From contig OZ286475.1 of NCBI GenBank assembly GCA_965644265.1, forward strand, positions 76,632,001 through 76,696,000: 64,000 bases of DNA, read 5' to 3'. The DNA is from Glycera tridactyla. Taxonomy: Eukaryota. Positions 27,589 through 64,000 of the stretch are shown here, piece after piece (position 1 is the first letter of the stretch; the number at the start of each line of letters is the position of its first letter). Both the position numbers and the translations under genes were made by a program. The notes below the pieces were generated by a model that searched no databases, was not told where the DNA came from, and saw nothing but the letters and a program-made list of their open reading frames with translations.

Positions 27589-27589
<1 letters not shown>

Positions 27590-27694
27590 ATTAGAAGCAA
27601 ACTCTAACCAACATCCCCTTTTCTCTGTGTGTTTATATAGGGAGCGAAAAAGTATCTCAATAAGCCTCCCGATACTAGACAAGAGCTGTACGAC

Positions 27695-28745
27695 ATGGAG
27701 AAACTCCGAAAGGTTGCCGAGTCTATCGTCGGTCTCTCGTTAACCGCTTTCGCCGAACAGGATCCACAGCGTCACGTTGGAGAACGATTGCGACTTTGGA
27801 ACAATGCAGGGGAACCTATTCACGGACATCCTTGCGAACCCGCTATCGCTGAATGTGAGTTCAATTATAGATGCAATTGTTAACAAGCCCAGGGATGATG
27901 TTGCGGAACTGTGTGAGAAGTATTTCCCGGGCATCCAGATCGGGGATTTGATAGAGACAATAATGAAGGCCGATAAGTGGTACCTGTTAGTCCTGATGTG
28001 CGCCCCGACGGACTCTGATCTGCGGAAAGACGCGGGCCCTCAACATGAGGTGAATCTAGTGAACTCGTTCGAGAATTACTGAATTCACGCCCTGTGGAAC
28101 GGCTATATTCTTCCGCACATCATTGGGGCACTAGACTATCGGCGACCCCGAGGCAATGTTGGCAGAGTGGCGTTCTGGGATGATCGGAACGTCGATGAGG
28201 CCGGTTCGTCCGGCGAGGCCATTTGGCAGCGCGCCAAGAATGACGTGATTGATTCGGAAGAGGGTGTTCAAACTTTGCTTAGTCTATGCGAGGGCATGTT
28301 TTATTGTCTTACGAGTCTGAGGTGTGCCCACGAGGGGAAGGAGGTGCTCACAAAACTCACGATGGACTTGATCTACAGCTTAGAAAAAGTTATTCTCTTC
28401 GCTTCATGTATTGTAGAAACGGCCCCACAGTTCTATTCCCGATATGTGTATAATCTACCCCCTCAGATGAAATGTATGCTGGGTTCGTTACCTAAACAGA
28501 GTTACAGCCATGTGTTAGAGACGTGCAATGACTTACTGATGACGATGGAGGATGACGAGACGGCGAAACGGACCTGGTCTCAGATTATTAACAGTGAACT
28601 GCGGACAGATATGACCCCACAGGTGAAGGAGAGCAACAATAACGGACGAGACTTTACATTTACCCTAGACACGACAGACAGCCCACTCTTCAAGTCGGAC
28701 AGGTTCCTCGCAATGATGATGACGGTCGAAGAGGAAGCTGTTTAA
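27695..28745 (+). pseudogene. Disrupted orphan viral gene (~350 aa)
   Basis: ORFs 27777-28082 and 28167-28745 are one reading frame broken by a single TGA at 28080-28082. The ATG at 27695 is in another frame, suggesting a frameshift near 27745-27780. Confidence 0.62.
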
Positions 28746-28767
28746 CGTCACGAGCGGCAGCTTCCGG

Positions 28768-29940
28768 TTGATGACGGAGGCGCTACACTATTACATTGCA
28801 ACACAACAGTTGAATCGGGCCATGGACCTGGTCGCCGAGGCCCTTTCAGAACCCCGGAGAGGAAAGATTTGCGGGAGCGATAAAGTGTCGCCCCAAAGGA
28901 GGGAGATGGAGATCGGGCTCTCGGCACAGTTAAAGAACTACGTCCCGATCAATCTCAACGACTTCGAGCGAGACGACAGTGAAGACGACAGCGCCTCCGC
29001 GGAGGACGGCAATCCCATAGACCACCTCACGAGATGGATGTGGGAGATGAGATACGAGTTTCTCATGGTATTCGTCTATCATCTCCTGAGCCACGGGCCG
29101 CTGCCGGGCTATATTTGTTGGGAGCACGTCGCCAACCTGGTCACGATGGCAAGGGAATTCCCTAAAAACATGCACTGGACAACCAGATGTTGGTGCGAGG
29201 TAGAGCACGACCTCGAGAAATACCCAACACTGAACGAAGCCATCTGTTCAAAAATGACGACGGATTCGGAAATTTGGCGGGAGAAACGTGAGCGCTGTGG
29301 ATGCGCCACCCTAAAGGGCCCGCTTCGAAATGACATTCTGGAAGACGCTCTCACATATCTCGTAAAGGAGAGAAAGGAGTACAGCGAGGCGCCAGAACAA
29401 CTGGTGATGAACATGGCTTTTGGCCTGTATCAGTACTTCACCAAGTTGAACCGGGAGACCAAAGTTAACAGGCTGGCCATCAACGAACTGGCGGCACTCT
29501 CTATAGAGCAGACACTGGCCCTCTGCATTCCAAACCCGCTACGCGCGGAGGAACACACGGTCAAGTCGACTCGGCGATGGACTCCCGCCGGCGACCTCCT
29601 GGGAATGGAATGGAAACTGTACCCAAAAGCATGGTGTAGCCTCATGACGGAGCTACAAACAAACCGCCTGCTAATGACTCAGGAGGACGCGAACGGGGGG
29701 TTTCTCGGACTTGGAAAACACCTTCACGCCCACCTCATTCTGACAGAGATCCCGTTCCAATGTAGAATGCAAGATGGACACGTGACTGACGACAGCGACG
29801 ATGACGACAGCGACGACGACGACGACGACATACCGATGAAACCAGACGTGTACTCCGCCAAGAGATTGGCGTGTGCAGAGACCCGACTCAATAAGAAATC
29901 TGTTATAAATAGTTCGGAGTCGGCGCTCCACCGTTCGTAA
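28768..29940 (+). CDS. Orphan viral protein, 390 aa
   Basis: Long ORF with normal composition and an acidic tail; ATG at 28771. No family recognised. Confidence 0.75.
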   Translation: MMTEALHYYIATQQLNRAMDLVAEALSEPRRGKICGSDKVSPQRREMEIGLSAQLKNYVPINLNDFERDDSEDDSASAEDGNPIDHLTRWMWEMRYEFLMVFVYHLLSHGPLPGYICWEHVANLVTMAREFPKNMHWTTRCWCEVEHDLEKYPTLNEAICSKMTTDSEIWREKRERCGCATLKGPLRNDILEDALTYLVKERKEYSEAPEQLVMNMAFGLYQYFTKLNRETKVNRLAINELAALSIEQTLALCIPNPLRAEEHTVKSTRRWTPAGDLLGMEWKLYPKAWCSLMTELQTNRLLMTQEDANGGFLGLGKHLHAHLILTEIPFQCRMQDGHVTDDSDDDDSDDDDDDIPMKPDVYSAKRLACAETRLNKKSVINSSESALHRS

Positions 29941-31484
29941 TTTTCTTGACTCTCGACATCGAAGGGGTCTTCGTTTGTGTCTTCGTGAACGTTCTCGTTA
30001 TTCTCCCCAGCTTCCTCTTCCTCTTTCACCGCTTTTCGAAGCGTTTCTTGAAATCTGTCTATGGCCTGTAGAGTTAGGGAAGATAGAACCACTAACGTCT
30101 TGTTAGCCCCCAGACCAATATTCACCCGCTCCCTCAAGGTCTTCTTAACTTTGTGATTGAGAAGACGTCGTCGCCTGGAAGCGTCGTTGGAACAAAGAAC
30201 GGTTTCGCGACTTAGAGGGGGGCCCCACAGGTGATGGTGATTTAAACGCCGATCGCAGAGCACCCACTGATCGGTTGAATCGAGCGGACGCCAGTTGGCG
30301 TACTGGTCTTTGTGCAACTCCGTGAGTATCGTGAGTCGATTTAAAATCCCGCAATGTTCGGAGGTTGTGATCGGCTTTCGTTTCGAGTTGAAGAGGGAAA
30401 GTTCGAAAACGGAGTTGGTTAAGAAAACTTCGAGAGCCTCCACGTCGTTCGGGTCTTCGTCCTCGTAAACTGTTACGGGTCCATCTACTCCCTCTTTCCA
30501 TTCGCCGAAAAACTTTAGGCTTGTGGCGAGACTGTTGGTCGGCTTGCTACTCGGAGTCGATCCCTGCGGCAACCACGTGTTCTTCAGCGTGGTGTGTCTA
30601 TAGGGGTTGTTCGGCAGCGTGGCCTGCTCGGCGGCTCCGTCGTTATTCGTGGTCTTTGGGCCGCCGCCGCGACCGAGCCTGGAACTGTTTTGAGCGGGGG
30701 CTCTGAGACATCCCAGTGGGGAATTCGGGTTGCATATTTCGTCGACGATGTTCCGATGACTTTGAGAATCTTCGTGAACGGCCATGAGTTTCAGGAGAAG
30801 TCTCATGCTCAGACGCCCGTTGTCCACGTAGACCCTGTTGATCGGGTTCGTTTGGGATATGCGCCAATAATAATGCATCATGTCTCGTATGAGAAACACC
30901 TGGTTGGGGCGCGTGCAGTTAGAATAGCTGTTGAAAAGACAGATCTCGAAACATCGCTTATCGACAAGCGCGTTAAGATAGAACGGAAACATGCTGTTCT
31001 CCCAGACGTTCTTTTTTTCGTCGGGCGTCTGCGATTGACGCGCGTAGAGTTCCAGGGCTTGCGTTTGGTCGATGTTCGTGTCGGCGAGGAGCTCGGAGAG
31101 AAATTCTAACCGCTGACTCTTTGCATTCACGTCCACTCCTAGAAAGATCGCCGCGCAGTTTAAGACGCGGAGTTTCACCAAATCGAGTGTTTCGATTTCG
31201 ACAACGTCCTCCAGATCTTTGAAGCAGCGGAGGAGATTTTTTAAAAGGGTCTTTATCTCGTCTAGTTCCTCTTTGTCGGGAAAGCCGTTTAGAGTAGAGG
31301 GTAGAATAAGATCGAGAACGAATCGCTCTAAACTCATCAGGTTGTAGTGCTTGGACGACTGGATGTAAGATATCTCCTCCTGTTCCATCTTCACGGCAAC
31401 GCAGAGCATGGTCTTTAGCACGGTGTTTAAAACCGGTAGGAGAAAATCATCGTGGGCGATCTGCGGGTATCTGAGCGCGTCCAT
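29724..31484 (-). CDS. Orphan viral protein, 586 aa, Leu-rich helical N-terminus
   Basis: Long ATG-initiated ORF with an upstream TATATA at ~31580. The 3' end overlaps the 390-aa gene by 217 bp. Confidence 0.8.
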   Translation of the reverse strand: MDALRYPQIAHDDFLLPVLNTVLKTMLCVAVKMEQEEISYIQSSKHYNLMSLERFVLDLILPSTLNGFPDKEELDEIKTLLKNLLRCFKDLEDVVEIETLDLVKLRVLNCAAIFLGVDVNAKSQRLEFLSELLADTNIDQTQALELYARQSQTPDEKKNVWENSMFPFYLNALVDKRCFEICLFNSYSNCTRPNQVFLIRDMMHYYWRISQTNPINRVYVDNGRLSMRLLLKLMAVHEDSQSHRNIVDEICNPNSPLGCLRAPAQNSSRLGRGGGPKTTNNDGAAEQATLPNNPYRHTTLKNTWLPQGSTPSSKPTNSLATSLKFFGEWKEGVDGPVTVYEDEDPNDVEALEVFLTNSVFELSLFNSKRKPITTSEHCGILNRLTILTELHKDQYANWRPLDSTDQWVLCDRRLNHHHLWGPPLSRETVLCSNDASRRRRLLNHKVKKTLRERVNIGLGANKTLVVLSSLTLQAIDRFQETLRKAVKEEEEAGENNENVHEDTNEDPFDVESQENYERWSADSELFITDFLLSRVSAHANLLAEYTSGFIGMSSSSSSLSSSSLSSVTCPSCILHWNGISVRMRWA

Positions 31485-31671: not shown

Positions 31672-33555
31672 CTATTCTGAATAGCTGCCCTCGCTTTCGC
31701 TATCACTCGTGGACTCGCTATCACTCGCGGATTCGCTTTCGTATTCGCTCTCGTATTCGCTCTTGTTCGTGGTGGTGGTGCTGCTGTCCTTCCCCTTGGT
31801 ATTGCTTTTGTTCTTATTCTGGTCCTCCTTTTTATGTAAGGGAGATCTCGCGCGTACCTGAACCCTGGAGTCGATGGAAGTTTCCTTCTTTATGATATTG
31901 AGGTCTGTCCTATCAACGACTTGTTGGTCGGGTTTGAATGGAGCGGCGTTTAGATCCTGAGTAAACTCGACTGCATTATTGGAGGTCACCGCCATCTTTG
32001 TTTTAATTCGGGGATCCATGTTCATCCCGGCGTCGCCATTCAACCTCATTTTTTTGCTTGAAGTCGCCTCTTCTTCTTCTTTTTGTTGTTTTAGTTTCCT
32101 CTTCGATGATGATGATGCCGCTGACGCAGGTTGGGCCTCGACCCCATTTGTCTTTTCAGTATCGAGGGTAACCATACCGGTGTTCACCCACTCGTCTCTT
32201 CTACGTTTTAGTTCCTCCGTCACATGGTCCGTGACCTTCTGGAAATCGGGGAAAAGTGAGGGATCGCAGCGTCCTCGATGGAGCGCGGATCCAATGGTCC
32301 TCGGGACCAACTTGAAAGTCTGGCCGTTGTGGTGTATCGGTTTGGACAGATAGGGAGTTGTCTCCATGAATTGTTGAGTCCAATACAAACAGGGTGGCAT
32401 ATTCCCATGATACATGGAGCCCTTGCCGTCCTCCTTGGTCACACATTTTGGTAGATGGTAGAATAGGTTGCCGATTACTCGCACGAGGTCATACTTGATG
32501 TTTTTGAACGTAGAGGGGGAGGAGGCGTAGACATTTATCGATGCGTGTTCCCGGTGAATCTCGGGGTCGTAAACGTAATCGGTATTATCGGTTTGATGGA
32601 AACAGAAGATACTCTTCTTCGTCTGTTTCTTTTTTGTAGCTGTCTCGTTGACGGAGCTCTCCTTACTGGATCCCTCTCCCTTCTCCTCCTCCTTCTCCTT
32701 TTTCATTTTTTTAAACTTTGAAGATTGCTCCGACTTGATTTTCCACTCCGGCGCTTTCAGTTCGGCAATAACGGGGGATTTCGAGTTCCTCCCTTCCACC
32801 CCTCTCTTTTCATAGGTGTAGGTGAACAAGAGATTGTAGTTTGCACCCTGAGCGTAAATTTTACCTTGTAGGTTATGCTCTATCGCCGGAATGTATATCT
32901 TCGCGGAGATTTTTACATTTGTTTCGGGTTTTTCGTTTTTCAGGATCTCCTCGTATTTGGAGATCTCGTCCGTCAGACTCTTAAAACTCGTGGCCTTGTC
33001 TCGCTCTTTAATGCAGATGTAGACAATGTAGTTGGGAGCGTTCTCTTCTTCTTTTTTAACACTCTTCGGTTTTAGGAGAATCAACATGTTGACCTTGGAC
33101 TGCCCCATGTTTTTCCAGGGTATGGTTGCGGCGAGTGTTTTACGGAGGTGCTCCTCAAACTCAGCCTCGGTTGTTTTATCGGCATTCTTGATCCTGATGT
33201 GGAGAACAAATCGTTTCCTGTCAGAACCGTTCGTCGATATGCCCCGGGCGGCAAATTCATATCCGATGAACTTTTCCACAAACTGTTGAATGGCGAGGTT
33301 CGGAGCGATCTCCGATATCTGAATGGGTTTGTACTTCTCGGCCATTTTGTTCTTTTCTGCGACTTCCTCTGTCTCCTTTGGTTCTTTTTCAGCGGGCTCC
33401 GAGTCTGTAATACTGGAAACTATATTCGCCATGTCCTGAGAAACTGATGAATCGGCGCTTAATTTATCTTCACTAGCTGTAACGTCACCGCTACTGCCGT
33501 CGCTGCTGACATCGTCGTTGCTGTTGTTGTTGTTGCTGTCACCGAAAGGCCACAT
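31672..33555 (-). CDS. Orphan viral protein, 627 aa, Lys-rich with acidic Ser/Glu repeat tail
   Basis: Long ATG-initiated ORF; AATAAA on the minus strand at ~31588 downstream of the stop. Confidence 0.82.
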   Translation of the reverse strand: MWPFGDSNNNNSNDDVSSDGSSGDVTASEDKLSADSSVSQDMANIVSSITDSEPAEKEPKETEEVAEKNKMAEKYKPIQISEIAPNLAIQQFVEKFIGYEFAARGISTNGSDRKRFVLHIRIKNADKTTEAEFEEHLRKTLAATIPWKNMGQSKVNMLILLKPKSVKKEEENAPNYIVYICIKERDKATSFKSLTDEISKYEEILKNEKPETNVKISAKIYIPAIEHNLQGKIYAQGANYNLLFTYTYEKRGVEGRNSKSPVIAELKAPEWKIKSEQSSKFKKMKKEKEEEKGEGSSKESSVNETATKKKQTKKSIFCFHQTDNTDYVYDPEIHREHASINVYASSPSTFKNIKYDLVRVIGNLFYHLPKCVTKEDGKGSMYHGNMPPCLYWTQQFMETTPYLSKPIHHNGQTFKLVPRTIGSALHRGRCDPSLFPDFQKVTDHVTEELKRRRDEWVNTGMVTLDTEKTNGVEAQPASAASSSSKRKLKQQKEEEEATSSKKMRLNGDAGMNMDPRIKTKMAVTSNNAVEFTQDLNAAPFKPDQQVVDRTDLNIIKKETSIDSRVQVRARSPLHKKEDQNKNKSNTKGKDSSTTTTNKSEYESEYESESASDSESTSDSESEGSYSE

Positions 33556-34621
33556 TTTTAAAATTGTCTTCTATGTGACTAATTACGGCATTTTGCGATA
33601 AATGCGGTTCCCAAATAACACAAGAAAAAGTCCCAGTGTTGTTGATCGAGCTATATTTAGAAATATCGCATGGAAACACGCCGTCTCCCCAATCATGGAA
33701 GGGCATCTTTCCTGTAATCTCGCCCCCTCCCGCCTCATCCTCCGATAAGATCCGACCCCACGCGGAAACATGGTAATTTTCCGCTACGACTTTCCCACAG
33801 AAGATCGGAGCCCCGGTGAAGAGAAATCGGTCACTGTTATCCGGGTCAAGCATCACGTGCGTTCTGGTCTCGCCCACTTGTATGGTTTCGAACTCTAACA
33901 GGATCCTCTCGACATCAAGGTCGTCTAGGACACTGGATATGTCAAGTCTATCGAGATCATCCGATAAGATTAGGCCACTTGTCTCGTTAATAATTCTCTT
34001 AATTAAACTTTCTGTCGAATGAAACAACATTGGTAAATCCGACAGCTCCAATTCGAGGTTCTCCCACTCGTATTCTAGACCGGGCAAGTGAAGTCGAGGA
34101 AAAAGTGACTCTTTCAAGTCGGCTCGTTTTCCGAGTTGGTTGATGATTTTGAGAACATCGCCAGCCTGATTCGAAACATATTTAATCTCACCGCCGCTCT
34201 TTCGCATTTGGATATTTTGAAGACGGTAGTACGCGTTGAAGGCATGTTCTAATTCTTTCTTGAGGATGCGAAGACGCGAATTTCGTCGCTCGGGGGATCC
34301 TTTGGGCACGGGTTTTTTTAATTGATGAATCTGAATAAAAATCTTGATGACGAGATAGATGAACTTTTGCACCTCCCTCCCCCAATTTAAATATGCGGCG
34401 AAGGAGTCGGACGTGCAGTTCCTCAGGATCGAAGATGATATCTTTGAAGTGGCGGGCGGATTCCTTGTCTCTATCCTCTTGACCTCGATATCGAGACATG
34501 CCGACACACTAATATGTGCCGCGTGATCAGCGAATCCTCGCTCATGTATAAAGTCCACATGGTCGGACATTCCGATTCTCGCGTCCGATAATTGGTTAGA
34601 GGGGGGCGATAAGGCCGTCAC
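33539..34621 (-). CDS. Orphan viral protein, up to 360 aa
   Basis: Long ORF whose stop overlaps the 627-aa start by 17 bp. The true start is probably the internal ATG (MSDHVDF). Confidence 0.75.
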   Translation of the reverse strand: MTALSPPSNQLSDARIGMSDHVDFIHERGFADHAAHISVSACLDIEVKRIETRNPPATSKISSSILRNCTSDSFAAYLNWGREVQKFIYLVIKIFIQIHQLKKPVPKGSPERRNSRLRILKKELEHAFNAYYRLQNIQMRKSGGEIKYVSNQAGDVLKIINQLGKRADLKESLFPRLHLPGLEYEWENLELELSDLPMLFHSTESLIKRIINETSGLILSDDLDRLDISSVLDDLDVERILLEFETIQVGETRTHVMLDPDNSDRFLFTGAPIFCGKVVAENYHVSAWGRILSEDEAGGGEITGKMPFHDWGDGVFPCDISKYSSINNTGTFSCVIWEPHLSQNAVISHIEDNFKNVAFR

Positions 34622-34659
34622 GTGATGAGGCCACGTGGGTTTTATGGTGTCCTATATAA
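34619..34659 (+). promoter_or_regulatory. Pol II promoter: two CACGTG E-boxes plus TATATAA
   Basis: CACGTG at 34619-34624 and 34632-34637; TATATAA at 34653-34659. Followed by an ATG-free leader ending in a strong AG|GTGAGT donor. Confidence 0.68.
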
Positions 34660-36348
34660 CTTCAGTCGGGGATCCTCTGCGGAATCGATCCATTCGGGAC
34701 TGGACGACTAACAAGCTTCACCGCCACTAATCACCAGCACTTCGCGGAGCTCTCTGTCTCTGATTTCTTTGTCAGTGGAGCCTCATCCGAGAATCAAACA
34801 AGGGAAGATCCAATCGCGAGGAAAGCGGGATCGCCGATCGATACTTCTTAACAGAGAGATCCATATATAAGGTGAGTTATCGTTTATAAAAACACTTCAA
34901 AGGACCTGGGCAAACATGCGGCCACCTGATTGTTCACACAGGGGGGCTCGATCCCCGATAAAGGGGTTTCTCGGTTCTCACCGTTATCGTCGCCGCCGCC
35001 GCTTCTCACGATCATCATTGTCCTTGTCGCCATGATTGTCCTTGTCGCCGTCGCTCCCGTTCCCCGTTTTGAAGATGGAGGAATATTCAACGGGGTCGAA
35101 TTTGGCTTTACATATGATATCCAATGTGGCTCTCATTATGAAAACCAGAGTATTACACTCTCATGTCGGCGATAACTATAGCGATATCGAGGATTCTTTG
35201 ACTACTAGTAGTGGTGGTGACTCTGGTACTACCGAAAGTAACGGGAGCAATAGCAACGGAGGCCATTTTTATGAACCGGAGAGCGGAAAATTATGCGAGG
35301 ATCACTTTAACTGTAGAGAGTCTCGACTGGTTTTTCTTCGGGGATTCTTTAACGGAGGAAAACATGGTTCCCAAAACACGGATGCGTGAGAGTGCTTATA
35401 TTTACTCCGATTAGTCTATGTATTCGGAAGCTCTTATCTATCTATCTGTCTATCTATCTTTTTGTTTATGTTGCTCTTTATCTGTCTATCTATCCTATCT
35501 ATTTACCTGTCTATTTATCCATCTATCCGCCCATCTACCTACCCATCCATCCATCCATCCATCCATCCATCTACCATCTGTCCATATATTCGTGCCCCCC
35601 TGATCTAATTTTCCTCGTTTCTTTTTCTAATCTTATAGTTGTGGCTGTGTTATTGACGAATATCGGGGAAAGGAGGAAGTAGAAGAGAACGAAGAGGCGA
35701 ACGAGTGGTCCCGCGTTCTACAGTATTTGCGGATAAGCTCCACCTCCATAAAACTTCATCGCCGAGGACTTCGTTCCGGAGAGAAAGTTTTGGCCGGGTC
35801 CGTTGACGGTCTTTATCCGCCCAAAGGATCAGCGGACTTCATCTCGCTAGTTCGACTCCAGACGGTCAACTTACCTTCTGCTCAATCATCGAGGCCGTCG
35901 CCCCCGCCGTCACCCTTCGTTCATGTGCCGACCCCTTTTAGCGCCGCCCGGCGCCCAGTGGAGCGACACGTGGAGAGAATGCAAAACGGTCACGTCACAC
36001 TGAGTCCAAGGAAATCGGATATCTTGATATCTACAGCAATACAGGCTGTTACAGGTAGTGTCAATCACGGGTCTGAAAATACCAGGACGACTAGTCAGAA
36101 CTACGCAGTTATTAGATCTATACTTAATGGGAAATCGCTCAACGATAAAACAACAACACATAAGAGTACCACCCCTAATAATAGTGTCGGTGCTCTCAAC
36201 GGAACTTTTGTCGGGGACGAGGATCTAAGAAGAAGTATTTTTTTTGGTCTTGGTGGCTCCCCTATCGACTTTATTACAGGCGATCTGGAACTTTCGGGGA
36301 GCGCGCTGTCATCATCGGTCTCAAACGATAGGCTGTATTATCATTGTC

Positions 36349-36383
<35 letters not shown>

Positions 36384-36675
36384 GCAATTTATTCAACAAC
36401 GAACCAACTAACAGAAATATATCCAACACAGGTAGAGACAATACCCACACAGGTAGAAGACATATTGCGTAGCGCGATGGATGGTGCAGGTATTGGTGCA
36501 GGAGAGACCATGTTACCTGCGGAGACATTAAGTAATCAAACAATCAATCAATCGGAACTGGATAGTATTTTATCAAATGTGTCTTTTCCAGAGTTCCTCG
36601 ACTTCGCATCACTTCAACCTCTTGGCGACAATAATCTTACTCAAACAATAATACCGCCACCACCACCACAACCAC

Positions 36676-36709
<34 letters not shown>

Positions 36710-39302: not shown

Positions 39303-39337
<35 letters not shown>

Positions 39338-53443: not shown

Positions 53444-55093
53444 ATGGCCTCTCCGCGGCGCTCCGAAAATGACACTCAGATAGACTACGATACCTACGTG
53501 GATTTCATTCTAGAAAACAAAATAGACATAATCTCGGCGTTTGGAAACACGAGGTACCCGTTCATCCCAAACGAACTCACCGTTTTAGATCCCCTCTCTC
53601 AAGGCAACATTCACTTCCAGATAAAGAAGATTTTCGAGGAGTACCAACGAAAAGGCTGGATCGGCAAGAATCTCCGATACGTTTCCTCGGGACTGATTTC
53701 TAAAAAGGGGCTGATCCTGCCGTGTTCAGAGAAAGTAATCACGGGGCCCGGCGGAGGCCTGACTCTAACGTTCACCAGAGCCCCCGAGGTGGTCATGGGG
53801 AAACTGGCCAACCTCTTTTATTTTAAAGACCAAGTAAACGTCTCGACGGGTAAACGGACCCGCTACGTCAAAGATAGACTCCAAGATCCAACTCTTTATT
53901 ACGCCATCCTTCAATTGTGTTTTCTACTACAGAGGGCTTGGAATCCGCCGAATCCGGGCACCGCTCACCCCTTTCGTAAAATCATCTCCGCTCTAGACTT
54001 TTTATTCAAGAAGCACACCTCCGCCGATCGCCTGGAGGAAAAAGAACATCTGCATTACATCCTAGAGAACATTCGGTTCAGCTCCGGCAAGATACTGCGC
54101 CGCTTCAACACGTTTCCGTTCAAGAGTCGCTATTCCTTCATTCACAAGTTCAACACGGAGACCAAACGTTTAAGTCTGGAATTCATAAACGAAGGAGCTC
54201 TGCTCCAGATAGCGGACGGGATCAAGCTGACCGAAATTCTCCACGCCGAGGAACCCGACATCAACTTCGCGCGTCGCCAAAGCGTCATGGAAGACATCTT
54301 AAACACCTCCACGGGACTATCCAGCGAGAACTTGATGCAATTGATACAGACCATTCTCCTGATGATGACCAGCGGTCGGGGGGAGACAAACTATCGGGAG
54401 TGGGGGGACCTCTCGAAGATTACCGCAAGAACAAAAGACTACGTGGATCAGGACATGCAGCTGCTGATCGTCAAACTCTCTGCGGCTCTTCGCTCTCGGA
54501 TCAAAAATAAAATGATACAGTTGAATCACGAGAAGTGCACCTGCATGGCCAAGTGCGTCGGTCAGGAAATGGGAGCCCATCCGGAACTGACGAATCACTT
54601 CATCGACACGATTCACCCAACCTACCATTCGACCCTCAAGTGCGGCTTCTGCAATCTCTCCAACAGTTTGGAAAACACCACCTCGCAGAGGCCGCGAAAA
54701 GTGATCACGCAAGAACAACCCCAGTACCTTTCCTGCTCGTTGGACGGTTCCACAACGATCTACGCGGAACCCCTCTATTCGTTTAACTACAAACGAGACC
54801 CCCACAATCCGTCGGCGCCGATAACAAATGTCTCTGCTCCGTTTTTCCTTTACCTCACGAGCGTCTGTAACGTCTACGAGGAAACGAAAAAATCCCCGCG
54901 GAGTTCTTCCACAGGACGTTTTCTAACCGCCTGTTACGGAAATAGACTCTGCGCTCAACGAGTGACGAATAAACTGGCTTCCTTCCTCAACAGCACGAAA
55001 GAAAACTCCTCGTCGAACTTCATGCAGAGTCCGCAGTGGTGGCAGTGTATATCGTGCGAAAACCTTTTAAAGGAGAAGCCCTCTCTGGGTTGA
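53444..55093 (+). CDS. Cys-rich 549-aa protein, copy 2
   Basis: Identical translation to 45308-46957. Confidence 0.78.
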   Translation: MASPRRSENDTQIDYDTYVDFILENKIDIISAFGNTRYPFIPNELTVLDPLSQGNIHFQIKKIFEEYQRKGWIGKNLRYVSSGLISKKGLILPCSEKVITGPGGGLTLTFTRAPEVVMGKLANLFYFKDQVNVSTGKRTRYVKDRLQDPTLYYAILQLCFLLQRAWNPPNPGTAHPFRKIISALDFLFKKHTSADRLEEKEHLHYILENIRFSSGKILRRFNTFPFKSRYSFIHKFNTETKRLSLEFINEGALLQIADGIKLTEILHAEEPDINFARRQSVMEDILNTSTGLSSENLMQLIQTILLMMTSGRGETNYREWGDLSKITARTKDYVDQDMQLLIVKLSAALRSRIKNKMIQLNHEKCTCMAKCVGQEMGAHPELTNHFIDTIHPTYHSTLKCGFCNLSNSLENTTSQRPRKVITQEQPQYLSCSLDGSTTIYAEPLYSFNYKRDPHNPSAPITNVSAPFFLYLTSVCNVYEETKKSPRSSSTGRFLTACYGNRLCAQRVTNKLASFLNSTKENSSSNFMQSPQWWQCISCENLLKEKPSLG

Positions 55094-56561
55094 AGACATA
55101 CTTGTCGTTGTGTTTGGCGTTCGGCGGAGCAGAACTCAGTTTTAGCATAGGGGGTCGGAGGAGTAGGGGCTCGTCCAAATAGTGAATGACCAGAGACGCA
55201 GCCCTCATGGCCGACGAAAAACAACGATCCGCGTCAGTCCCTTCCTCCTCCTCCTTTTTCTGCTTCAACTCTTTGTTGTAGATTCCTAGCGATTCGGCTT
55301 CGTTCAATGTTATGTGATAGTAGGGCGCCTCTCCTTGGCTTTCTACCCAAATAAAACTGGACGAATCGCCCTCATTGCATAACGTGTGTTCAATGTAGTA
55401 CTCGTCGAGCTTGGTTTTAATGGATTCGGTAGAAAGCCTGCGCCTAGTCAGTGTTTTCAACTCGTATATGTATTGGGGTATTCTGGAGGGTTTATGTTCG
55501 TTCGGGTTAGGCGCGGGTGCTTCCTCCTGTTCGAATTCGTGATCGTTCGACCAGTCCCAGTTATCAAAGCAACTGTGATCGTCCTCCTCCTCTCTTTCGA
55601 TATTCATCGCCGTTTCTTCGGTGTGTTTATCGGCGAAATAAACCACCACGTCTGGGGTCGCTCCCACGAGCCCGCCGGGAAGAATGGTTCGCCCGGGTTT
55701 CTTAAACACCACTCTGGTCTTTCCGCCAGCGCAGTCCTCTTTCGTGTAAATGTGAGCGTCGGAAATCAGCTGGAGTGCGAGGTTTTCGTGCACGTGCATA
55801 CCAATCTGCAGGGGCATGGAAACCCGCTCATTGTTGGCGCTGTAAGAACCCTCGGGGATAGGGTTATAGTTCTCAAAGAGCCTCACTAAATCTGAAAACT
55901 CCGACCTCAGTTTATTTAAGATTTTGCTCTCGGATATGCCCTCGATATCTAGATTGGTCCAAAATGCGGTAGACCACCAGGGGACCAGCTTGTTGCCCAC
56001 GAGGCGCTCCAAGATCGAATAAGAATCCGAAATGTTTCCGGATATGTGGAAGAAGTCTTTGGAACGGGCGTGAAACACATAACTGTGTTTAGAAAGCAAG
56101 GAGAGGTTTTCGAATTCTTCCCCCGGCACGTTCCTTTTAACTTTTAACATGTCTTCATAGATTTCCTTGTCGTGGATGTGCCTCTGATTCCATTTAAACA
56201 CAGTCAGGAGAATACTCAGGAGCCGGCGCAGATACTTATCGCAAAGTACGACCATGTTCGGTTTCCCGTGTTTGGGATTGTTGTCCAGTAGGACCGAGTT
56301 CAACGTCGTTCTTCTCAAAGCCTCTTCATCCTCGGCTAGTTTACTGGTGGCCCGAAGATCGACGCGAACCAGTTGTCGGGTTTTGTAAGCATCGGTGAAA
56401 AATTCGGATACCGGGCCGAACTTCAAGATCTTTTTGATCATGTACGGGAAGATTGTCTGCTGACCTAACATTCGCTCGTCTTTCGTTAAGAACTCTGCCG
56501 GGTACAACCAGATACACGCCATGTCCCCGTTAGGGTCATTATGTGTGGTTGCTGCCATCAC
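55020..56561 (-). pseudogene. Inverted truncated nuclease copy 2
   Basis: As 46884-48425 with the H allele and an L>H change. Confidence 0.88.
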
Positions 56562-57124
56562 AAGCCCGTTCCTCCGTCTAAAATAATGATACTGAGAAGG
56601 GAGTTGTTGTTGTTAAGACTCGATTCCCCGTTCTTCTATCCTCATCTAAATCCCCAAAGGCGAATGTTTAGTTCTTATACGCCTTCCATCTCAATCTGTG
56701 TCAGGTCTACACCTCCTTCTGGAACGAGGCAAGTGGGTCACGGAGTGTAGGTTAACTCTCTAGGCCCAAAACAAATTAAGAGGAGGGGGGTCATCAAATA
56801 GGTGCAGAGGGATGGCGATGATGATGATAATAATATCTATGAACAAATACCGGTAAAATAAAAACACAAGAGAAAAGAGTTGTTTTAGTAGTTCTTCTTT
56901 ATATAAACGTCTCTCTACATATGTGTGAATGAGACTACCCGAGAAGCTCTACAGAGGTTATAACACAACATGACGTAACATTCGATACATGCGATCACAA
57001 AATAGTATATACATACATAGATAGAACCCAAGATAGAAGCCGAGGTAGAAGCCAAGGTAGAGCCCGAGGTAAAAGCCGAGCTAGAAGCCGAGATAGAAGT
57101 CCAAGCCGAAGCCGAGGACGAAGC

Positions 57125-57991
57125 ATGGGGCCGGAAAGTCGTTCGAATCGCTCTAAGAGTATGAGTCGCCATACCGACTCTCATGAGGAGAGAAACCATC
57201 ATCATCGCCGTGATTGTCGCCGTCGTTATGACGATAATGATGATCGCCGGTATCGCGGTCGTCGTGATGCTGGTGATAGTTGGCATCGTTCGGATCGTGG
57301 GGGGCGCCGGTGTCCTGAAATCGATCAATTTCGAAGTCACATGCGGTCTTTCTGGCAAAGGGATGGGGGGCGAAGCCACAGTTTTGTAGATTGGAATAGA
57401 AGAGGGGAGCGTTCCTTTAGAGAAGGACCAAGTCAAGCACGTTCGGACCACGAATACGACTTCGACGATCAGAGCTACGATTGGAGAAACAGATACGGTT
57501 TATCTCTTAGTTACGAAGACTATTTAGCCTGGTATCGTTTTCAATCCCAATCTCAGAGTCATCATCAGGTGTTGGGGTCGAGACAAGATTCCTCAGTTTG
57601 TTACTCCCCACATTCGTCTCTAGATTCGCATCGTCGGCGTTCCCAACAGTCAGACAATTATTTTCACGGACAGTCTCACGAATATCCACGACCTTCAGAA
57701 TTTTCACAATGGCAACCAGAACATCACCACCACCACCCCCTCACTCAGTATCCAAATCAGGCTCCACAGCCACAGCCACAGCCACAACTACAACCACCGC
57801 CACCGCTACAACCACAATCCCGTGTACATTACAATCCCAATTTCATTCCACAGGAGAACCATGCCCAGAGAGAGAATCAGAATCAGACCCCAGATCAGTG
57901 GTTACGCGGGCCGAACGGTAGAGATGAGGTGGAATCATCGGAGATACCGAGATATTATACGCATAAACAAGAGGCACGGGAGACAACATAG
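57125..57991 (+). pseudogene. 3' fragment of the IE-like gene, repeat unit 3
   Basis: Identical translation to 48989-49855. Confidence 0.82.
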
Positions 57992-58490
57992 TCGCCTGTA
58001 TAATCCTTCCCGTGGTATCGATGTTATGTGTGTATGTATGTATATACTATTTTGTGATCGCATGTATCGAATGTTACGTCATGTTGTGTTATAACCTCTG
58101 TAGAGCTTCTCGGGTAGTCTCATTCACACATATGTAGAGAGACGTTTATATAAAGAAGAACTACTAAAACAACTCTTTTCTCTTGTGTTTTTATTTTACC
58201 GGTATTTGTTCATAGATATTATTATCATCATCATCGCCATCCCTCTGCACCTATTTGATGACCCCCCTCCTCTTAATTTGTTTTGGGCCTAGAGAGTTAA
58301 CCTACACTCCGTGACCCACTTGCCTCGTTCCAGAAGGAGGTGTAGACCTGACACAGATTGAGATGGAAGGCGTATAAGAACTAAACATTCGCCTTTGGGG
58401 ATTTAGATGAGGATAGAAGAACGGGGAATCGAGTCTTAACAACAACAACTCCCTTCTCAGTATCATTATTTTAGACGGAGGAACGGGCTT

Positions 58491-60845
58491 GTGATGGCAG
58501 CAACCACACATAATGACCCTAACGGGGACATGGCGTGTATCTGGTTGTACCCGGCAGAGTTCTTAACGAAAGACGAGCGAATGTTAGGTCAGCAGACAAT
58601 CTTCCCGTACATGATCAAAAAGATCTTGAAGTTCGGCCCGGTATCCGAATTTTTCACCGATGCTTACAAAACCCGACAACTGGTTCGCGTCGATCTTCGG
58701 GCCACCAGTAAACTAGCCGAGGATGAAGAGGCTTTGAGAAGAACGACGTTGAACTCGGTCCTACTGGACAACAATCCCAAACACGGGAAACCGAACATGG
58801 TCGTACTTTGCGATAAGTATCTGCGCCGGCTCCTGAGTATTCTCCTGACTGTGTTTAAATGGAATCAGAGGCACATCCACGACAAGGAAATCTATGAAGA
58901 CATGTTAAAAGTTAAAAGGAACGTGCCGGGGGAAGAATTCGAAAACCTCTCCTTGCTTTCTAAACACAGTTATGTGTTTCACGCCCGTTCCAAAGACTTC
59001 TTCCACATATCCGGAAACATTTCGGATTCTTATTCGATCTTGGAGCGCCTCGTGGGCAACAAGCTGGTCCCCTGGTGGTCTACCGCATTTTGGACCAATC
59101 TAGATATCGAGGGCATATCCGAGAGCAAAATCTTAAATAAACTGAGGTCGGAGTTTTCAGATTTAGTGAGGCTCTTTGAGAACTATAACCCTATCCCCGA
59201 GGGTTCTTACAGCGCCAACAATGAGCGGGTTTCCATGCCCCTGCAGATTGGTATGCACGTGCACGAAAACCTCGCACTCCAGCTGATTTCCGACGCTCAC
59301 ATTTACACGAAAGAGGACTGCGCTGGCGGAAAGACCAGAGTGGTGTTTAAGAAACCCGGGCGAACCATTCTTCCCGGCGGGCTCGTGGGAGCGACCCCAG
59401 ACGTGGTGGTTTATTTCGCCGATAAACACACCGAAGAAACGGCGATGAATATCGAAAGAGAGGAGGAGGACGATCACAGTTGCTTTGATAACTGGGACTG
59501 GTCGAACGATCACGAATTCGAACAGGAGGAAGCACCCGCGCCTAACCCGAACGAAAATAAACCCTCCAGAATACCCCAATACATATACGAGTTGAAAACA
59601 CTGACTAGGCGCAGGCTTTCTACCGAATCCATTAAAACCAAGCTCGACGAGTACTACATTGAACACACGTTATGCAATGAGGGCGATTCGTCCAGTTTTA
59701 TTTGGGTAGAAAGCCAAGGAGAGGCGCCCTACTATCACATAACATTGAACGAAGCCGAATCGCTAGGAATCTACAACAAAGAGTTGAAGCAGAAAAAGGA
59801 GGAGGAGGAAGGGACTGACGCGGATCGTTGTTTTTCGTCGGCCATGAGGGCTGCGTCTCTGGTCATTCACTATTTGGACGAGCCCCTACTCCTCCGACCC
59901 CCTATGCTAAAACTGAGTTCTGCTCCGCCGAACGCCAAACTCAACGACAAGTATGTCTTCAACCCAGAGAGCAGAGAAAAAATCTACGATAGAAAAATGA
60001 AGACAATGAAAACCGAGGGAGCCCAAAAGGGCTGTTCCTGTGGAGCGATCACAAATCCCTTTTTCCGGGGATCCGACTTCCTATCGGCGCGTGTGACAAA
60101 AGAAGAAAACGCGAGGATCCAGGGACACCCCTCGCCCATCTGGAAGAAGCTTGAGGCCGGAGGCGATGTTGGAGATCGGGTCGATTTGAGTAAACATCAA
60201 CACGGAGCGAACAGACAGCCGACCGAATACAGTAAATTTGACGATCCCCACGTTCTTCTTGCTCACATGGGGGAACACCGATACATTCTCCCCTGGGATA
60301 GTGTCGATGTTGGACATCACGGCTTCATCGGGGACACTCTCAACCCGAGGGCAAAATCTCGATGTGTGCTGTACTCTTACGCCGAACCTCTTCAAAAATA
60401 CGCCGTTATCGATTACGAGGTAGCCCCCTACGTCCTATCGCCAACGTCCGATTACTTCAAACAGATTCTACAGGAGGTTAACGCGTATCAACAGCTCAAC
60501 GAGGAAATCCGAGCCTTCATAACGATCGTCTTCTTGTATCGAACCGAATCGGATGATGTCAGTGTAGAGTCGAATAGAGTGGCGGCAACTTACACGACGG
60601 AGGTTCGGATCACAAAAGCAATGATGGCGGTTTACACGGCGAACGTGATTTCTCAGGTTTTTCGAGAACACCAAGCGATCATTCGTTACTGCAAACAAGA
60701 CCTCTATCCGGACTCCTGGTCGCACTCTGAGAAGAAAGAGCAGCGGAACCGCGAGCGAAAAACCGTCCAAATGTACAAGCCTTTTCTGGACGAACTCGTC
60801 GAGGCCCTCCACAACACTAGGACGGAAACGTTTATAATGGGATAG
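58491..60845 (+). CDS. Alkaline exonuclease-like nuclease, full-length copy 3
   Basis: Identical translation to copy 2. Confidence 0.8.
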   Translation: MMAATTHNDPNGDMACIWLYPAEFLTKDERMLGQQTIFPYMIKKILKFGPVSEFFTDAYKTRQLVRVDLRATSKLAEDEEALRRTTLNSVLLDNNPKHGKPNMVVLCDKYLRRLLSILLTVFKWNQRHIHDKEIYEDMLKVKRNVPGEEFENLSLLSKHSYVFHARSKDFFHISGNISDSYSILERLVGNKLVPWWSTAFWTNLDIEGISESKILNKLRSEFSDLVRLFENYNPIPEGSYSANNERVSMPLQIGMHVHENLALQLISDAHIYTKEDCAGGKTRVVFKKPGRTILPGGLVGATPDVVVYFADKHTEETAMNIEREEEDDHSCFDNWDWSNDHEFEQEEAPAPNPNENKPSRIPQYIYELKTLTRRRLSTESIKTKLDEYYIEHTLCNEGDSSSFIWVESQGEAPYYHITLNEAESLGIYNKELKQKKEEEEGTDADRCFSSAMRAASLVIHYLDEPLLLRPPMLKLSSAPPNAKLNDKYVFNPESREKIYDRKMKTMKTEGAQKGCSCGAITNPFFRGSDFLSARVTKEENARIQGHPSPIWKKLEAGGDVGDRVDLSKHQHGANRQPTEYSKFDDPHVLLAHMGEHRYILPWDSVDVGHHGFIGDTLNPRAKSRCVLYSYAEPLQKYAVIDYEVAPYVLSPTSDYFKQILQEVNAYQQLNEEIRAFITIVFLYRTESDDVSVESNRVAATYTTEVRITKAMMAVYTANVISQVFREHQAIIRYCKQDLYPDSWSHSEKKEQRNRERKTVQMYKPFLDELVEALHNTRTETFIMG

Positions 60846-60873
60846 AGGCTTAAGGAGGCGGTTTTTAATATAT

Positions 60874-61542
60874 TTGTGTATCTATTTGTGTATCCATTCT
60901 CGCAAAGCTCTATCGGACCCGCTGTACACGTGGTCCCTCTCCTGTCCGCTGAGCGTATCTAAGATCATCAGAACCGTGACCCCGTGCAACGGGTGCATAA
61001 TAAAGGTGGACTGCGGGTGTCTTCTCCAGGCGCCCGGCGAATTCTACATTCCGCTTCAGGTAGCCGACTGCGACCTGTCCACGACGCCGGCCGAGCCAAC
61101 GATCGTCCCCGCCTACCCGGTAAACTTACCGGTCCTGCACTCTCTGTACAGCGCGGATCAACTCGACGATATTCGCGGCAGCTCCGTCAAGGACGACTGG
61201 AACAACATAGACATTCCAGAATTTGAGCCGTTCGGGTACGAGTGGAATCAAACGGCGCAGGTTAGCGAAAAATATTCTTCCGATCTAAAGAAACTAGCGG
61301 AGGAGAGCAGCAAACGAGCGGAGGTCTACCACACAAAGGCGGACGCGATGTTAAAAGAGGCAACGGATTTCACTGACTTGAGTCTCAGCCACGCCAAAGA
61401 TCTGGAGGAAAAGTTTGGCGATCTCAGTTGGTTGGGCACTCTGAATTTCGACACGGCCCAGGCCGGCGGTATCATCGGCATAATCATAGTAACTCTGACC
61501 TTCATAATGGGCATATATAACTGTTGGCGGGTCACCAGATAG
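60874..61542 (+). CDS. Fusion glycoprotein C-terminal fragment, copy 3
   Basis: Identical translation to copy 2. Confidence 0.62.
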   Translation: MCIYLCIHSRKALSDPLYTWSLSCPLSVSKIIRTVTPCNGCIIKVDCGCLLQAPGEFYIPLQVADCDLSTTPAEPTIVPAYPVNLPVLHSLYSADQLDDIRGSSVKDDWNNIDIPEFEPFGYEWNQTAQVSEKYSSDLKKLAEESSKRAEVYHTKADAMLKEATDFTDLSLSHAKDLEEKFGDLSWLGTLNFDTAQAGGIIGIIIVTLTFIMGIYNCWRVTR

Positions 61543-61579
61543 TAGATTGTCGTCGTCGGATTGCTGAAGGCGCGTCGAA

Positions 61580-63229
61580 ATGGCCTCTCCGCGGCGCTCC
61601 GAAAATGACACTCAGATAGACTACGATACCTACGTGGATTTCATTCTAGAAAACAAAATAGACATAATCTCGGCGTTTGGAAACACGAGGTACCCGTTCA
61701 TCCCAAACGAACTCACCGTTTTAGATCCCCTCTCTCAAGGCAACATTCACTTCCAGATAAAGAAGATTTTCGAGGAGTACCAACGAAAAGGCTGGATCGG
61801 CAAGAATCTCCGATACGTTTCCTCGGGACTGATTTCTAAAAAGGGGCTGATCCTGCCGTGTTCAGAGAAAGTAATCACGGGGCCCGGCGGAGGCCTGACT
61901 CTAACGTTCACCAGAGCCCCCGAGGTGGTCATGGGGAAACTGGCCAACCTCTTTTATTTTAAAGACCAAGTAAACGTCTCGACGGGTAAACGGACCCGCT
62001 ACGTCAAAGATAGACTCCAAGATCCAACTCTTTATTACGCCATCCTTCAATTGTGTTTTCTACTACAGAGGGCTTGGAATCCGCCGAATCCGGGCACCGC
62101 TCACCCCTTTCGTAAAATCATCTCCGCTCTAGACTTTTTATTCAAGAAGCACACCTCCGCCGATCGCCTGGAGGAAAAAGAACATCTGCATTACATCCTA
62201 GAGAACATTCGGTTCAGCTCCGGCAAGATACTGCGCCGCTTCAACACGTTTCCGTTCAAGAGTCGCTATTCCTTCATTCACAAGTTCAACACGGAGACCA
62301 AACGTTTAAGTCTGGAATTCATAAACGAAGGAGCTCTGCTCCAGATAGCGGACGGGATCAAGCTGACCGAAATTCTCCACGCCGAGGAACCCGACATCAA
62401 CTTCGCGCGTCGCCAAAGCGTCATGGAAGACATCTTAAACACCTCCACGGGACTATCCAGCGAGAACTTGATGCAATTGATACAGACCATTCTCCTGATG
62501 ATGACCAGCGGTCGGGGGGAGACAAACTATCGGGAGTGGGGGGACCTCTCGAAGATTACCGCAAGAACAAAAGACTACGTGGATCAGGACATGCAGCTGC
62601 TGATCGTCAAACTCTCTGCGGCTCTTCGCTCTCGGATCAAAAATAAAATGATACAGTTGAATCACGAGAAGTGCACCTGCATGGCCAAGTGCGTCGGTCA
62701 GGAAATGGGAGCCCATCCGGAACTGACGAATCACTTCATCGACACGATTCACCCAACCTACCATTCGACCCTCAAGTGCGGCTTCTGCAATCTCTCCAAC
62801 AGTTTGGAAAACACCACCTCGCAGAGGCCGCGAAAAGTGATCACGCAAGAACAACCCCAGTACCTTTCCTGCTCGTTGGACGGTTCCACAACGATCTACG
62901 CGGAACCCCTCTATTCGTTTAACTACAAACGAGACCCCCACAATCCGTCGGCGCCGATAACAAATGTCTCTGCTCCGTTTTTCCTTTACCTCACGAGCGT
63001 CTGTAACGTCTACGAGGAAACGAAAAAATCCCCGCGGAGTTCTTCCACAGGACGTTTTCTAACCGCCTGTTACGGAAATAGACTCTGCGCTCAACGAGTG
63101 ACGAATAAACTGGCTTCCTTCCTCAACAGCACGAAAGAAAACTCCTCGTCGAACTTCATGCAGAGTCCGCAGTGGTGGCAGTGTATATCGTGCGAAAACC
63201 TTTTAAAGGAGAAGCCCTCTCTGGGTTGA
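61580..63229 (+). CDS. Cys-rich 549-aa protein, copy 3
   Basis: Identical translation to copies 1 and 2. Confidence 0.78.
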   Translation: MASPRRSENDTQIDYDTYVDFILENKIDIISAFGNTRYPFIPNELTVLDPLSQGNIHFQIKKIFEEYQRKGWIGKNLRYVSSGLISKKGLILPCSEKVITGPGGGLTLTFTRAPEVVMGKLANLFYFKDQVNVSTGKRTRYVKDRLQDPTLYYAILQLCFLLQRAWNPPNPGTAHPFRKIISALDFLFKKHTSADRLEEKEHLHYILENIRFSSGKILRRFNTFPFKSRYSFIHKFNTETKRLSLEFINEGALLQIADGIKLTEILHAEEPDINFARRQSVMEDILNTSTGLSSENLMQLIQTILLMMTSGRGETNYREWGDLSKITARTKDYVDQDMQLLIVKLSAALRSRIKNKMIQLNHEKCTCMAKCVGQEMGAHPELTNHFIDTIHPTYHSTLKCGFCNLSNSLENTTSQRPRKVITQEQPQYLSCSLDGSTTIYAEPLYSFNYKRDPHNPSAPITNVSAPFFLYLTSVCNVYEETKKSPRSSSTGRFLTACYGNRLCAQRVTNKLASFLNSTKENSSSNFMQSPQWWQCISCENLLKEKPSLG

Positions 63230-64000
63230 AGACATACTTGTCGTTGTGTTTGGCGTTCGGCGGAGCAGAACTCAGTTTTAGCATAGGGGGTCGGAGGAGT
63301 AGGGGCTCGTCCAAATAGTGAATGACCAGAGACGCAGCCCTCATGGCCGACGAAAAACAACGATCCGCGTCAGTCCCTTCCTCCTCCTCCTTTTTCTGCT
63401 TCAACTCTTTGTTGTAGATTCCTAGCGATTCGGCTTCGTTCAATGTTATGTGATAGTAGGGCGCCTCTCCTTGGCTTTCTACCCAAATAAAACTGGACGA
63501 ATCGCCCTCATTGCATAACGTGTGTTCAATGTAGTACTCGTCGAGCTTGGTTTTAATGGATTCGGTAGAAAGCCTGCGCCTAGTCAGTGTTTTCAACTCG
63601 TATATGTATTGGGGTATTCTGGAGGGTTTATGTTCGTTCGGGTTAGGCGCGGGTGCTTCCTCCTGTTCGAATTCGTGATCGTTCGACCAGTCCCAGTTAT
63701 CAAAGCAACTGTGATCGTCCTCCTCCTCTCTTTCGATATTCATCGCCGTTTCTTCGGTGTGTTTATCGGCGAAATAAACCACCACGTCCGGGGTCGCTCC
63801 CACGAGCCCGCCGGGAAGAATGGTTCGCCCGGGTTTCTTAAACACCACTCTGGTCTTTCCGCCAGCGCAGTCCTCTTTCGTGTAAATGTGAGCGTCGGAA
63901 ATCAGCTGGAGTGCGAGGTTTTCGTGCACGTGCATACCAATCTGCAGGGGCATGGAAACCCGCTCATTGTTGGCGCTGTAAGAACCCTCGGGGATAGGGT
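63156..64000 (-). pseudogene. Inverted truncated nuclease copy 3 (runs off the window edge)
   Basis: Matches inverted copy 2 in translation; one extra synonymous change at ~63789. Confidence 0.85.

What the first reader, a model, noticed from the sequence alone, without database searches (positions are those of the whole stretch)
27589..64000. Endogenous herpesvirus-like large DNA virus of mostly orphan genes in an invertebrate-type genome
Seen: after repeat-rich AT-rich host DNA, at least 36 kb of densely packed, mostly intact ORFs with abundant CpG. Established: PD-(D/E)xK alkaline exonucleases, spliced immediate-early genes and class I fusion proteins are hallmarks of nuclear large DNA viruses. 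Inference: a germline-integrated member of a poorly sampled, herpes-like lineage. At least six genes match nothing I recognise, and the hallmark genes (polymerase, terminase, capsid) are not in this window.
Basis: partly seen in the sequence, partly recalled or inferred. Interest (0 to 1): 0.92.

Follow-up and report, generated by a model that had tools for sequence, protein, structure and literature searches.

The report
Scrambled herpesvirus relic in invertebrate chromosome
An invertebrate chromosome carries a recently duplicated and folded-back piece of an undescribed virus related to the shellfish herpesviruses, most likely a heritable insertion, with further pieces on a second chromosome; such insertions are already known, but this lineage has no close relative in the databases searched.

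Summary
Real, but smaller and more scrambled than first read. From base 27,589 the DNA turns CpG-rich and gene-dense, yet 20.0 of the 36.4 kb are internal copies (a 2.95-kb tandem, an 8.14-kb unit three times, inverted arms): only 16.4 kb and eight genes are unique. The element runs on downstream, folds back on itself, and is split by a 52-kb host mobile element that inserts at (GAT)n; a 90-99% identical, equally rearranged copy lies on a second chromosome. That copy holds a herpesvirus terminase piece (PF02499 over cut-off; named relatives abalone herpesvirus and the lancelet provirus). The window's fusion-like fragment and its full-length paralogue match an abalone herpesvirus protein (E 2e-15, 2e-121). 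No gene found a close relative; the terminase is at most 34% identical to any hit. Chromosomal residence is supported by nested host insertions and CpG-type decay, not by reads (none listed). Capsid fold, nuclease fold and integration route remain untested or inferred. Verdict: a new, divergent member of a known kind (endogenous invertebrate Herpesvirales). The scan's earlier notes held nothing like it.

The parts
27517..27588 (+). (GAT)24 tract at the left host-virus junction; it belongs to the viral sequence (same 24 units in the inverted internal copy) and shares only the 3 bases GAT with the truncated 91-bp host minisatellite unit to its left
27697..29940 (+). orphan gene 1, here in three frames (small indels); about 750 codons in the inverted downstream copy
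   Evidence: no Pfam/PHROG hit
29724..31484 (-). orphan gene, 586 aa
   Evidence: no Pfam/PHROG hit of weight
31672..33555 (-). orphan gene, 627 aa
   Evidence: no hit
33539..34570 (-). orphan gene, 343 aa here, shortened by internal and 3' deletions relative to the downstream copy
34624..40536 (+). 2,954-bp head-to-tail duplication, 2 one-base indels between copies
35075..37403 (+). first, truncated copy of a spliced regulatory-like gene (exon 35,075-35,385, GT-AG intron 35,386-35,638, Cys/His cluster across the joint)
   Evidence: 'immediate-early' is inference only
38029..41725 (+). second copy of the spliced gene with long Gln/Pro/Ser/Arg low-complexity body
40759..64000 (+). 8,136-bp unit repeated three times (third runs past the window), each holding a 1,939-bp inverted arm; units differ by 1-6 substitutions
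42222..44573 (+). 783-aa protein with PD-(D/E)xK-like motifs (residues 299-308, 363-370, 654-662); likely alkaline-exonuclease-like; three full and three truncated inverted copies
   Evidence: Atlas neighbours are PD-(D/E)xK families at 0.82-0.86, a lead only; no sequence homologue
44566..45270 (+). C-terminal 234-codon frame of a membrane-anchored fusion-like glycoprotein, no own start codon, preceded by a possible splice acceptor
   Evidence: 30% identical to an 826-aa paralogue on C11; abalone herpesvirus protein E 1.6e-15; TM segment 206-230
45308..46957 (+). 549-aa orphan with Cys-rich C-terminal third
   Evidence: no Pfam, PHROG or Atlas hit

Best explanation
The stretch is a duplicated and folded-back fragment of a divergent herpesvirus-order virus related to the shellfish herpesviruses, likely fixed in the germline of a non-arthropod invertebrate by repair-type joining of rearranged viral DNA rather than by a viral integrase. 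Shown: the viral composition and gene density, the tandem and inverted copies, the herpes terminase and abalone-virus homologies in sister pieces, and the host elements nested inside the viral DNA. Inferred: that the scrambled pieces come from concatemeric or defective replication intermediates (or from template switching after insertion; the order cannot be told), that joins with 0-3 shared bases mean end-joining, that C42 and C11 record two related strains or two ages, and that the relic can no longer make virus because the polymerase and terminase were found only in pieces.
For: One virus across loci: C11:20.286-20.349 Mb carries the window's left end (95%), both ends flanking the 52-kb spacer (89-94%) and a gene of the second C42 island (99%). 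Herpes identity: L035 frame hits PF02499 at E 9.5e-8, 31.8 bits over a 22.8 cut-off; HMMER over 1.84 billion proteins gave 60 hits at E<=1e-3, 26-40% identical; 19 of 22 of those scanned carry PF02499 and/or PF02500; of 20 looked up, the two with an informative name are abalone herpesvirus terminase and a Branchiostoma floridae protein. Against 21 frames from 22.6 kb of abalone herpesvirus, 198 frames gave hits for the fusion-like pair, the terminase pieces, a primase/UL9-like helicase (E 6.5e-27) and a C59 P-loop protein, and shuffled controls none; UL9 family PF02399 weakly (E 0.004, below cut-off). Chromosomal residence: two 81- and 118-Mb contigs; a 52-kb host element, 98-99.9% identical to a copy on C10, sits inside the viral GAT tract whose empty form is seen on C11; a second, 1.1-kb host repeat sits in the second island and is absent from C11; 16 of 34 C11-versus-window transitions are of CpG type against 26% expected (P 0.007). 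Youth: inverted arms differ at 13 of 5,972 and 5 of 3,561 bases.
Against: No reads could be laid, so junctions and copy number rest on the assembly; units 2 and 3 differ at 1 of 6,982 bases and could be over-expanded. Seven of the window's eight genes have no detectable homologue, so their herpes identity is by linkage only. The capsid candidate (1,251 aa, L011) found no homologue and was not folded. The whole-genome family scans scored the terminase piece below cut-off (PF02499 E 0.43; PF02500 no real hit). The terminase branch is long (2.01) and its place unsure; the tree is the quick one and lacks named allo- and orthoherpes rows. An integrase could lie in parts of the virus that were lost or not found: the six-frame searches are a floor (the primase search, missed the C59 relative seen).
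Confidence: 0.72

Rival explanations
1. An actively integrating herpesvirus (Teratorn- or nimavirus-like) that inserts by its own recombinase, with later decay and rearrangement.
For: Viral DNA at two chromosomal loci plus an older relative on C59 suggests a lineage prone to endogenise; a preprint reports mobility genes enriched in integrated deep-branching Herpesvirales (10.1101/2025.04.19.649669, section 11); a 591-aa C11 protein has a faint recombinase-like string by eye; two Rep-like P-loop genes recall HHV-6 U94 (recalled).
Against: No transposase or recombinase family hit in any viral frame scanned. The (GAT)n runs first read as viral target sites belong, at two of three joints, to a host element: 10 of 10 left ends and 10 of 10 right ends examined sit in (GAT)n elsewhere in the genome. 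No defined termini or target duplication at the outer joints.
Confidence: 0.15
2. Assembly artefact: DNA of a free virus in the sequenced animal was stitched into scaffolds, the fold-backs being chimeric reads or amplification products.
For: Fold-back inversions and near-identical tandem units are typical of amplification chimeras (own knowledge); several joints abut satellites or microsatellites; long ORFs are still open.
Against: A 52-kb host element with its target-site signature and a 1.1-kb host repeat lie inside viral DNA at sites that are empty in the other copy; the two loci differ by 1-10% and show CpG-type decay; no N gaps in any viral stretch; about 400 kb of further flanks show no other islands.
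Confidence: 0.08
3. Another class of large DNA virus (mirusvirus, Naldaviricetes or nucleocytovirus) that picked up herpes-like genes.
For: Most genes are orphans; the capsid fold is untested; PrimPol-helicase, F-type fusogen, caspase and RING genes occur across several virus groups (own knowledge).
Against: Terminase family and its named relatives are Herpesvirales; three unrelated genes match one 22.6-kb stretch of abalone herpesvirus; a protease-plus-scaffold layout lies next to the window (motif reading).
Confidence: 0.05

Closest known systems
BelcheriHV-1 and the Branchiostoma floridae provirus (PMC12373286, passages seen; PMC5552708, passages seen)
   Same: Malacoherpes-related genome inside an invertebrate chromosome, in discontinuous blocks between repeats, with few substitutions; the B. 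floridae protein is among the terminase hits (E 5e-23).
   Different: That provirus is near-complete (149,856 bp, 27 of 62 ORFs with malacoherpes homology); this one is split over two chromosomes, amplified and folded back, its host reads the standard invertebrate mitochondrial code, and its terminase falls outside the starred clade that holds the lancelet and abalone rows.
Malacoherpesviridae, abalone herpesvirus (Aurivirus haliotidmalaco1)
   Same: Homologous terminase (33%), fusion-like glycoprotein (30% over 730 aa) and UL9-like helicase part (30%).
   Different: Identities are near the twilight zone; only 22.6 kb of its genome could be compared; it is an exogenous pathogen.
Worm, starfish and ribbon-worm herpes-like sequences (Peanut worm and Sandworm herpesvirus, PMC6950620, passages; Capitella, PMC5552708, passages; embedded regions of 10.1101/2025.04.19.649669, sections 10-11)
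   Same: Deep-branching invertebrate Herpesvirales, some embedded in host genomes.
Teratorn (PMC5601938, PMC5822658; search listing only) and microsatellite-targeting endogenous nimaviruses (PMC10871703, passages)
   Same: Large DNA viruses resident in animal chromosomes, the latter flanked by simple repeats.
   Different: Both carry their own transposase or recombinase and defined ends; none was found here, and the simple-repeat flanks at two joints are due to a host element.

Membership tests
Herpesvirales | terminase ATPase/nuclease subunit of herpes type | tested here: met
   C-terminal part on C11 only: PF02499 over cut-off, 60 relatives, abalone herpesvirus E 3.5e-26; a likely 5' piece matches weakly (E 0.004); gene is in pieces
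Herpesvirales | HK97-fold major capsid protein with tower | tested here: inconclusive
   1,251-aa candidate in the second C42 island chosen by size; no hit in PDB sequences or 5.8 billion proteins; not folded
Herpesvirales | capsid maturation protease fused to scaffold | tested here: inconclusive
   motif reading by eye of L122/L001 frame; no Pfam hit; fold not obtained
Herpesvirales | family B DNA polymerase | tested here: inconclusive
   only a 232-aa C-terminal piece with a KKxYxG-like motif on C11, no Pfam or PDB hit; a frameshifted polB lies in the older C59 relative
Herpesvirales | helicase-primase and origin-binding helicase | tested here: inconclusive
   UL9-like: PF02399 E 0.004 below cut-off and abalone virus E 6.5e-27; 1,539-aa primase candidate by motifs only
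Herpesvirales | enveloped T=16 icosahedral virion, nuclear replication | not testable with these tools
   no particle data
Malacoherpesviridae | falls inside the malacoherpes clade in a conserved-gene tree | tested here: inconclusive
   quick tree of 41 of 61 terminase rows: query on a 2.01 branch outside the 100* abalone clade and the 96* abalone+lancelet clade; long-branch placement unsure
Malacoherpesviridae | shared accessory/structural gene set | tested here: inconclusive
   3 genes of this virus match in the 22.6 kb compared; the rest of that genome was not held
PD-(D/E)xK alkaline exonuclease (783-aa protein) | PD, (D/E)xK and Y..Q..Q motifs in a lambda-exonuclease fold | tested here: inconclusive
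   motifs present (motif identity recalled); Atlas leads under 0.9; no Pfam hit; fold job did not finish
Germline endogenous viral element | host-virus joints supported by reads and inherited | not testable with these tools
   no run listed; indirect support from nested host elements and CpG-type decay
Self-integrating large DNA viruses (Teratorn, endogenous nimaviruses) | own transposase/recombinase and defined ends with target site | tested here: not met
   none in the viral frames scanned; GAT flanks explained by a host element; lost parts cannot be judged

The most novel reading that the evidence does not exclude
A family-level new lineage of Herpesvirales, infecting a worm-type (probably annelid) host, has entered this germline repeatedly (C42, C11 and an older relative on C59) without an integrase, as amplified fold-back replication intermediates; about 100 kb of its genes, most without any known relative, including two fusion-protein paralogues and Rep-like helicases, are preserved almost unmutated.
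Probability: 0.35. Interest if true: 0.75.

Novelty: new member of a known kind. Interest (0 to 1): 0.55.

Why it matters
Invertebrate herpesviruses outside molluscs are known mostly from short fragments. This genome holds roughly 100 kb of nearly unmutated genes of a very divergent one, useful for placing the root of Herpesvirales and for structural annotation of orphan genes. Its scrambled form offers a record of how large DNA viruses without a visible integrase end up in chromosomes. The nested giant (GAT)n-seeking host element is a separate lead.

Tried and rejected
Rejected: (1) viral targeting of (GAT)n microsatellites, my first reading (3 of 8 joints in long GAT runs, P 2e-7 by host density): two of the three are the ends of a host element whose other copies all sit in (GAT)n, the third is the virus's own tract. 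(2) 36 kb of distinct genes. (3) Pure neutral decay between C42 and C11: gene 1 gives dN/dS 0.5-1.7 but another gene 0.21 (4 synonymous, 3 non-synonymous changes, P 0.047) and frames of 1,000-1,955 codons are open; unresolved. Led nowhere: word-indexed homologue searches for the 783-aa protein, the capsid candidate and the terminase piece; Pfam and PHROG on window genes; Atlas on the 549-aa protein; PDB sequence searches (one search gave only a weak pol delta match); pattern scans of viral and metagenome contigs; sequencing runs: none was listed, so no reads were laid and expression is unknown; the structure prediction of the 783-aa protein did not finish, so no fold search was run. Literature: no paper held all of 'endogenous herpesvirus, microsatellite, integration, terminase' or the OsHV fusion-protein terms; two key papers were not held; eight searches in all showed no description of this locus, but the library is partial and one preprint's supplement is closed. 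Earlier scan notes: nothing relevant.
Full report
Observation. The window lies at C42:76,632,001-76,696,000 of a 2.04-Gb assembly in 207 contigs. CpG observed/expected is 0.28-0.63 in 13 of 14 bins before 28 kb and 0.94-1.24 in all 18 bins after; GC rises from about 0.40 to 0.46-0.52. The switch follows a (GAT)24 run at 27,517-27,588. Listed ORFs cover 86% of the rest and are far longer than in shuffles. But self-comparison shows a 2,954-bp tandem duplication and an 8,136-bp unit repeated three times, each with a 1,939-bp inverted arm, all 99.6-100% identical: 20,015 of 36,412 bases are copies and eight genes are distinct. Several are broken or truncated in this copy.

Window genes. None of ten frames had a meaningful Pfam or PHROG hit. 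The 783-aa protein has PD-, ExK- and Y..Q..Q-like motifs (motif identity recalled) and Atlas neighbours from PD-(D/E)xK families below the trusted score; no sequence homologue. The long low-complexity gene has an in-frame GT-AG intron; 'immediate-early' is a guess. The 234-codon frame at 44,566-45,270 ends in a membrane anchor, is 30% identical to the C-terminus of an 826-aa glycoprotein on C11 and matches an abalone herpesvirus frame at E 1.6e-15; the C11 paralogue matches the same frame at E 2e-121. Class I is recalled from motif likeness and untested.

Beyond the window. Downstream the element turns back: about 12 kb of the window's left part recur inverted, around 6 kb of new genes that include a likely protease-scaffold. 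After 2.3 kb more it ends in (GAT)29; 52 kb later a second CpG-rich island of about 32 kb starts at (GAT)14 and carries a primase/UL9-like helicase, two Rep-like P-loop genes, a caspase (PF00656 over cut-off) and a 1,251-aa capsid candidate. The terminal 1.6 kb has one other copy, on C11, where a 63-kb island and a 7-kb island hold parts of both C42 islands at 89-99% identity plus new genes, again with tandem and inverted repeats. Across loci 156,671 viral bases hold 110,735 distinct 31-mers, so roughly 100 kb is unique. About 400 kb of further flanks held no more islands.

Identity. A C11 frame hits herpes terminase PF02499 over cut-off. HMMER over 1.84 billion proteins returned 60 relatives at 26-40% identity; 19 of 22 scanned carry herpes terminase families; of 20 looked up, the informative names are abalone herpesvirus terminase and a Branchiostoma floridae protein. 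In a quick tree of 41 rows (query and 40 of the 60 hits) the query sits on a long branch outside the supported abalone-lancelet clade, best identity 34%, placement unsure. Three genes match within 22.6 kb of abalone herpesvirus, shuffled controls none. The polymerase was found only as a 232-aa C-terminal piece; the capsid candidate has no homologue. The host's COX1 reads with mitochondrial table 5 and a contig end reads as TTAGGG repeats: a non-arthropod invertebrate; annelid is my recalled impression of the COX1 sequence, not a test.

The GAT runs. I first took them for viral target sites. On C11 the two viral ends that flank the 52-kb spacer are joined through a short degenerate GAT tract. 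The spacer's ends each have at least 40 genomic copies at 94-100%; 22 of 40 left ends pair with a right end 29-105 kb away; 10 of 10 left and 10 of 10 right ends examined, the C42 ones included, lie in (GAT)n; a C10 copy is 98-99.9% identical along its length. So the spacer is a young giant host element that jumped into the virus's own GAT tract, and the two C42 islands are one piece. The window's left joint uses a second viral GAT tract and shares three bases with a cut host minisatellite.

Residence and age. The nested 52-kb element, a second 1.1-kb host repeat absent from C11 and an excess of CpG-type transitions (16 of 34, P 0.007) point to life in a methylated chromosome. Inverted arms differ by 0.14-0.22%, so the rearrangement is recent. 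C42 and C11 differ by 2.6-7.7% at synonymous sites, with mixed selection signals: two strains or two ages. No sequencing run was listed, so joints and copy number are unverified.

Mechanism. Best reading (0.72): rearranged viral DNA was joined into chromosomes by break repair (joints share 0-3 bases where both sides can be read) and amplified before or after; no integrase was seen. Rivals: a self-integrating virus that lost its enzyme (0.15), an assembly artefact (0.08), another virus class (0.05).

Known context. [quoted passage not shown]

Verdict. A real endogenous herpes-like relic of a divergent, undescribed lineage; the kind is known. Interest 0.55.

Noticed in passing
G000:C42:76,718,044-76,770,519 (L003:2044 to L008:4519) and at least 40 sites genome-wide: Giant (mostly 29-68 kb) young host mobile element with unlike ends, subterminal inverted GGGTCYTTTGGTMAC motifs and satellite cargo, inserting in (GAT)n; no shared coding region found in four copies read (long ORFs in the C1 copy are nested retroelements). 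No matching description in one literature search.
   Followed up: partly
G000:C59 about 265-276 kb (L021, L022): Older, frameshifted herpes-like element near a telomere: polB pieces, primase pieces matching the C11 primase (E 1.6e-6), a dUTPase-like frame (by eye) and a P-loop protein matching abalone herpesvirus (E 4e-19).
   Followed up: partly
L010:677 to L009:9700 (minus) and L010:750-1424 (plus): Two divergently arranged genes resembling the helicase half of CRESS-virus Rep proteins (motif reading; no Pfam hit; weak abalone-virus match E 0.004), next to a caspase gene.
   Followed up: partly
L008:5041-6129: 1.1-kb host repeat, with an end shared by dozens of genomic copies, inserted in viral DNA and absent from the C11 copy.
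   Followed up: yes
window 15,284-16,760 and 22,057-23,533: 1,477-bp direct repeat at 99.9% identity about 6.8 kb apart on the host side, possibly a young LTR pair or duplication.
   Followed up: no
window 250-5,198 (minus): LINE-like element: reverse-transcriptase frames (PF00078 E 1e-34) and a coiled-coil ORF1-like frame.
   Followed up: no
L030/L039 (C11) and L004-L006 (C42): The C11 islands abut a 185-bp satellite; the 52-kb insert carries about 30 kb of a roughly 510-bp satellite.
   Followed up: partly
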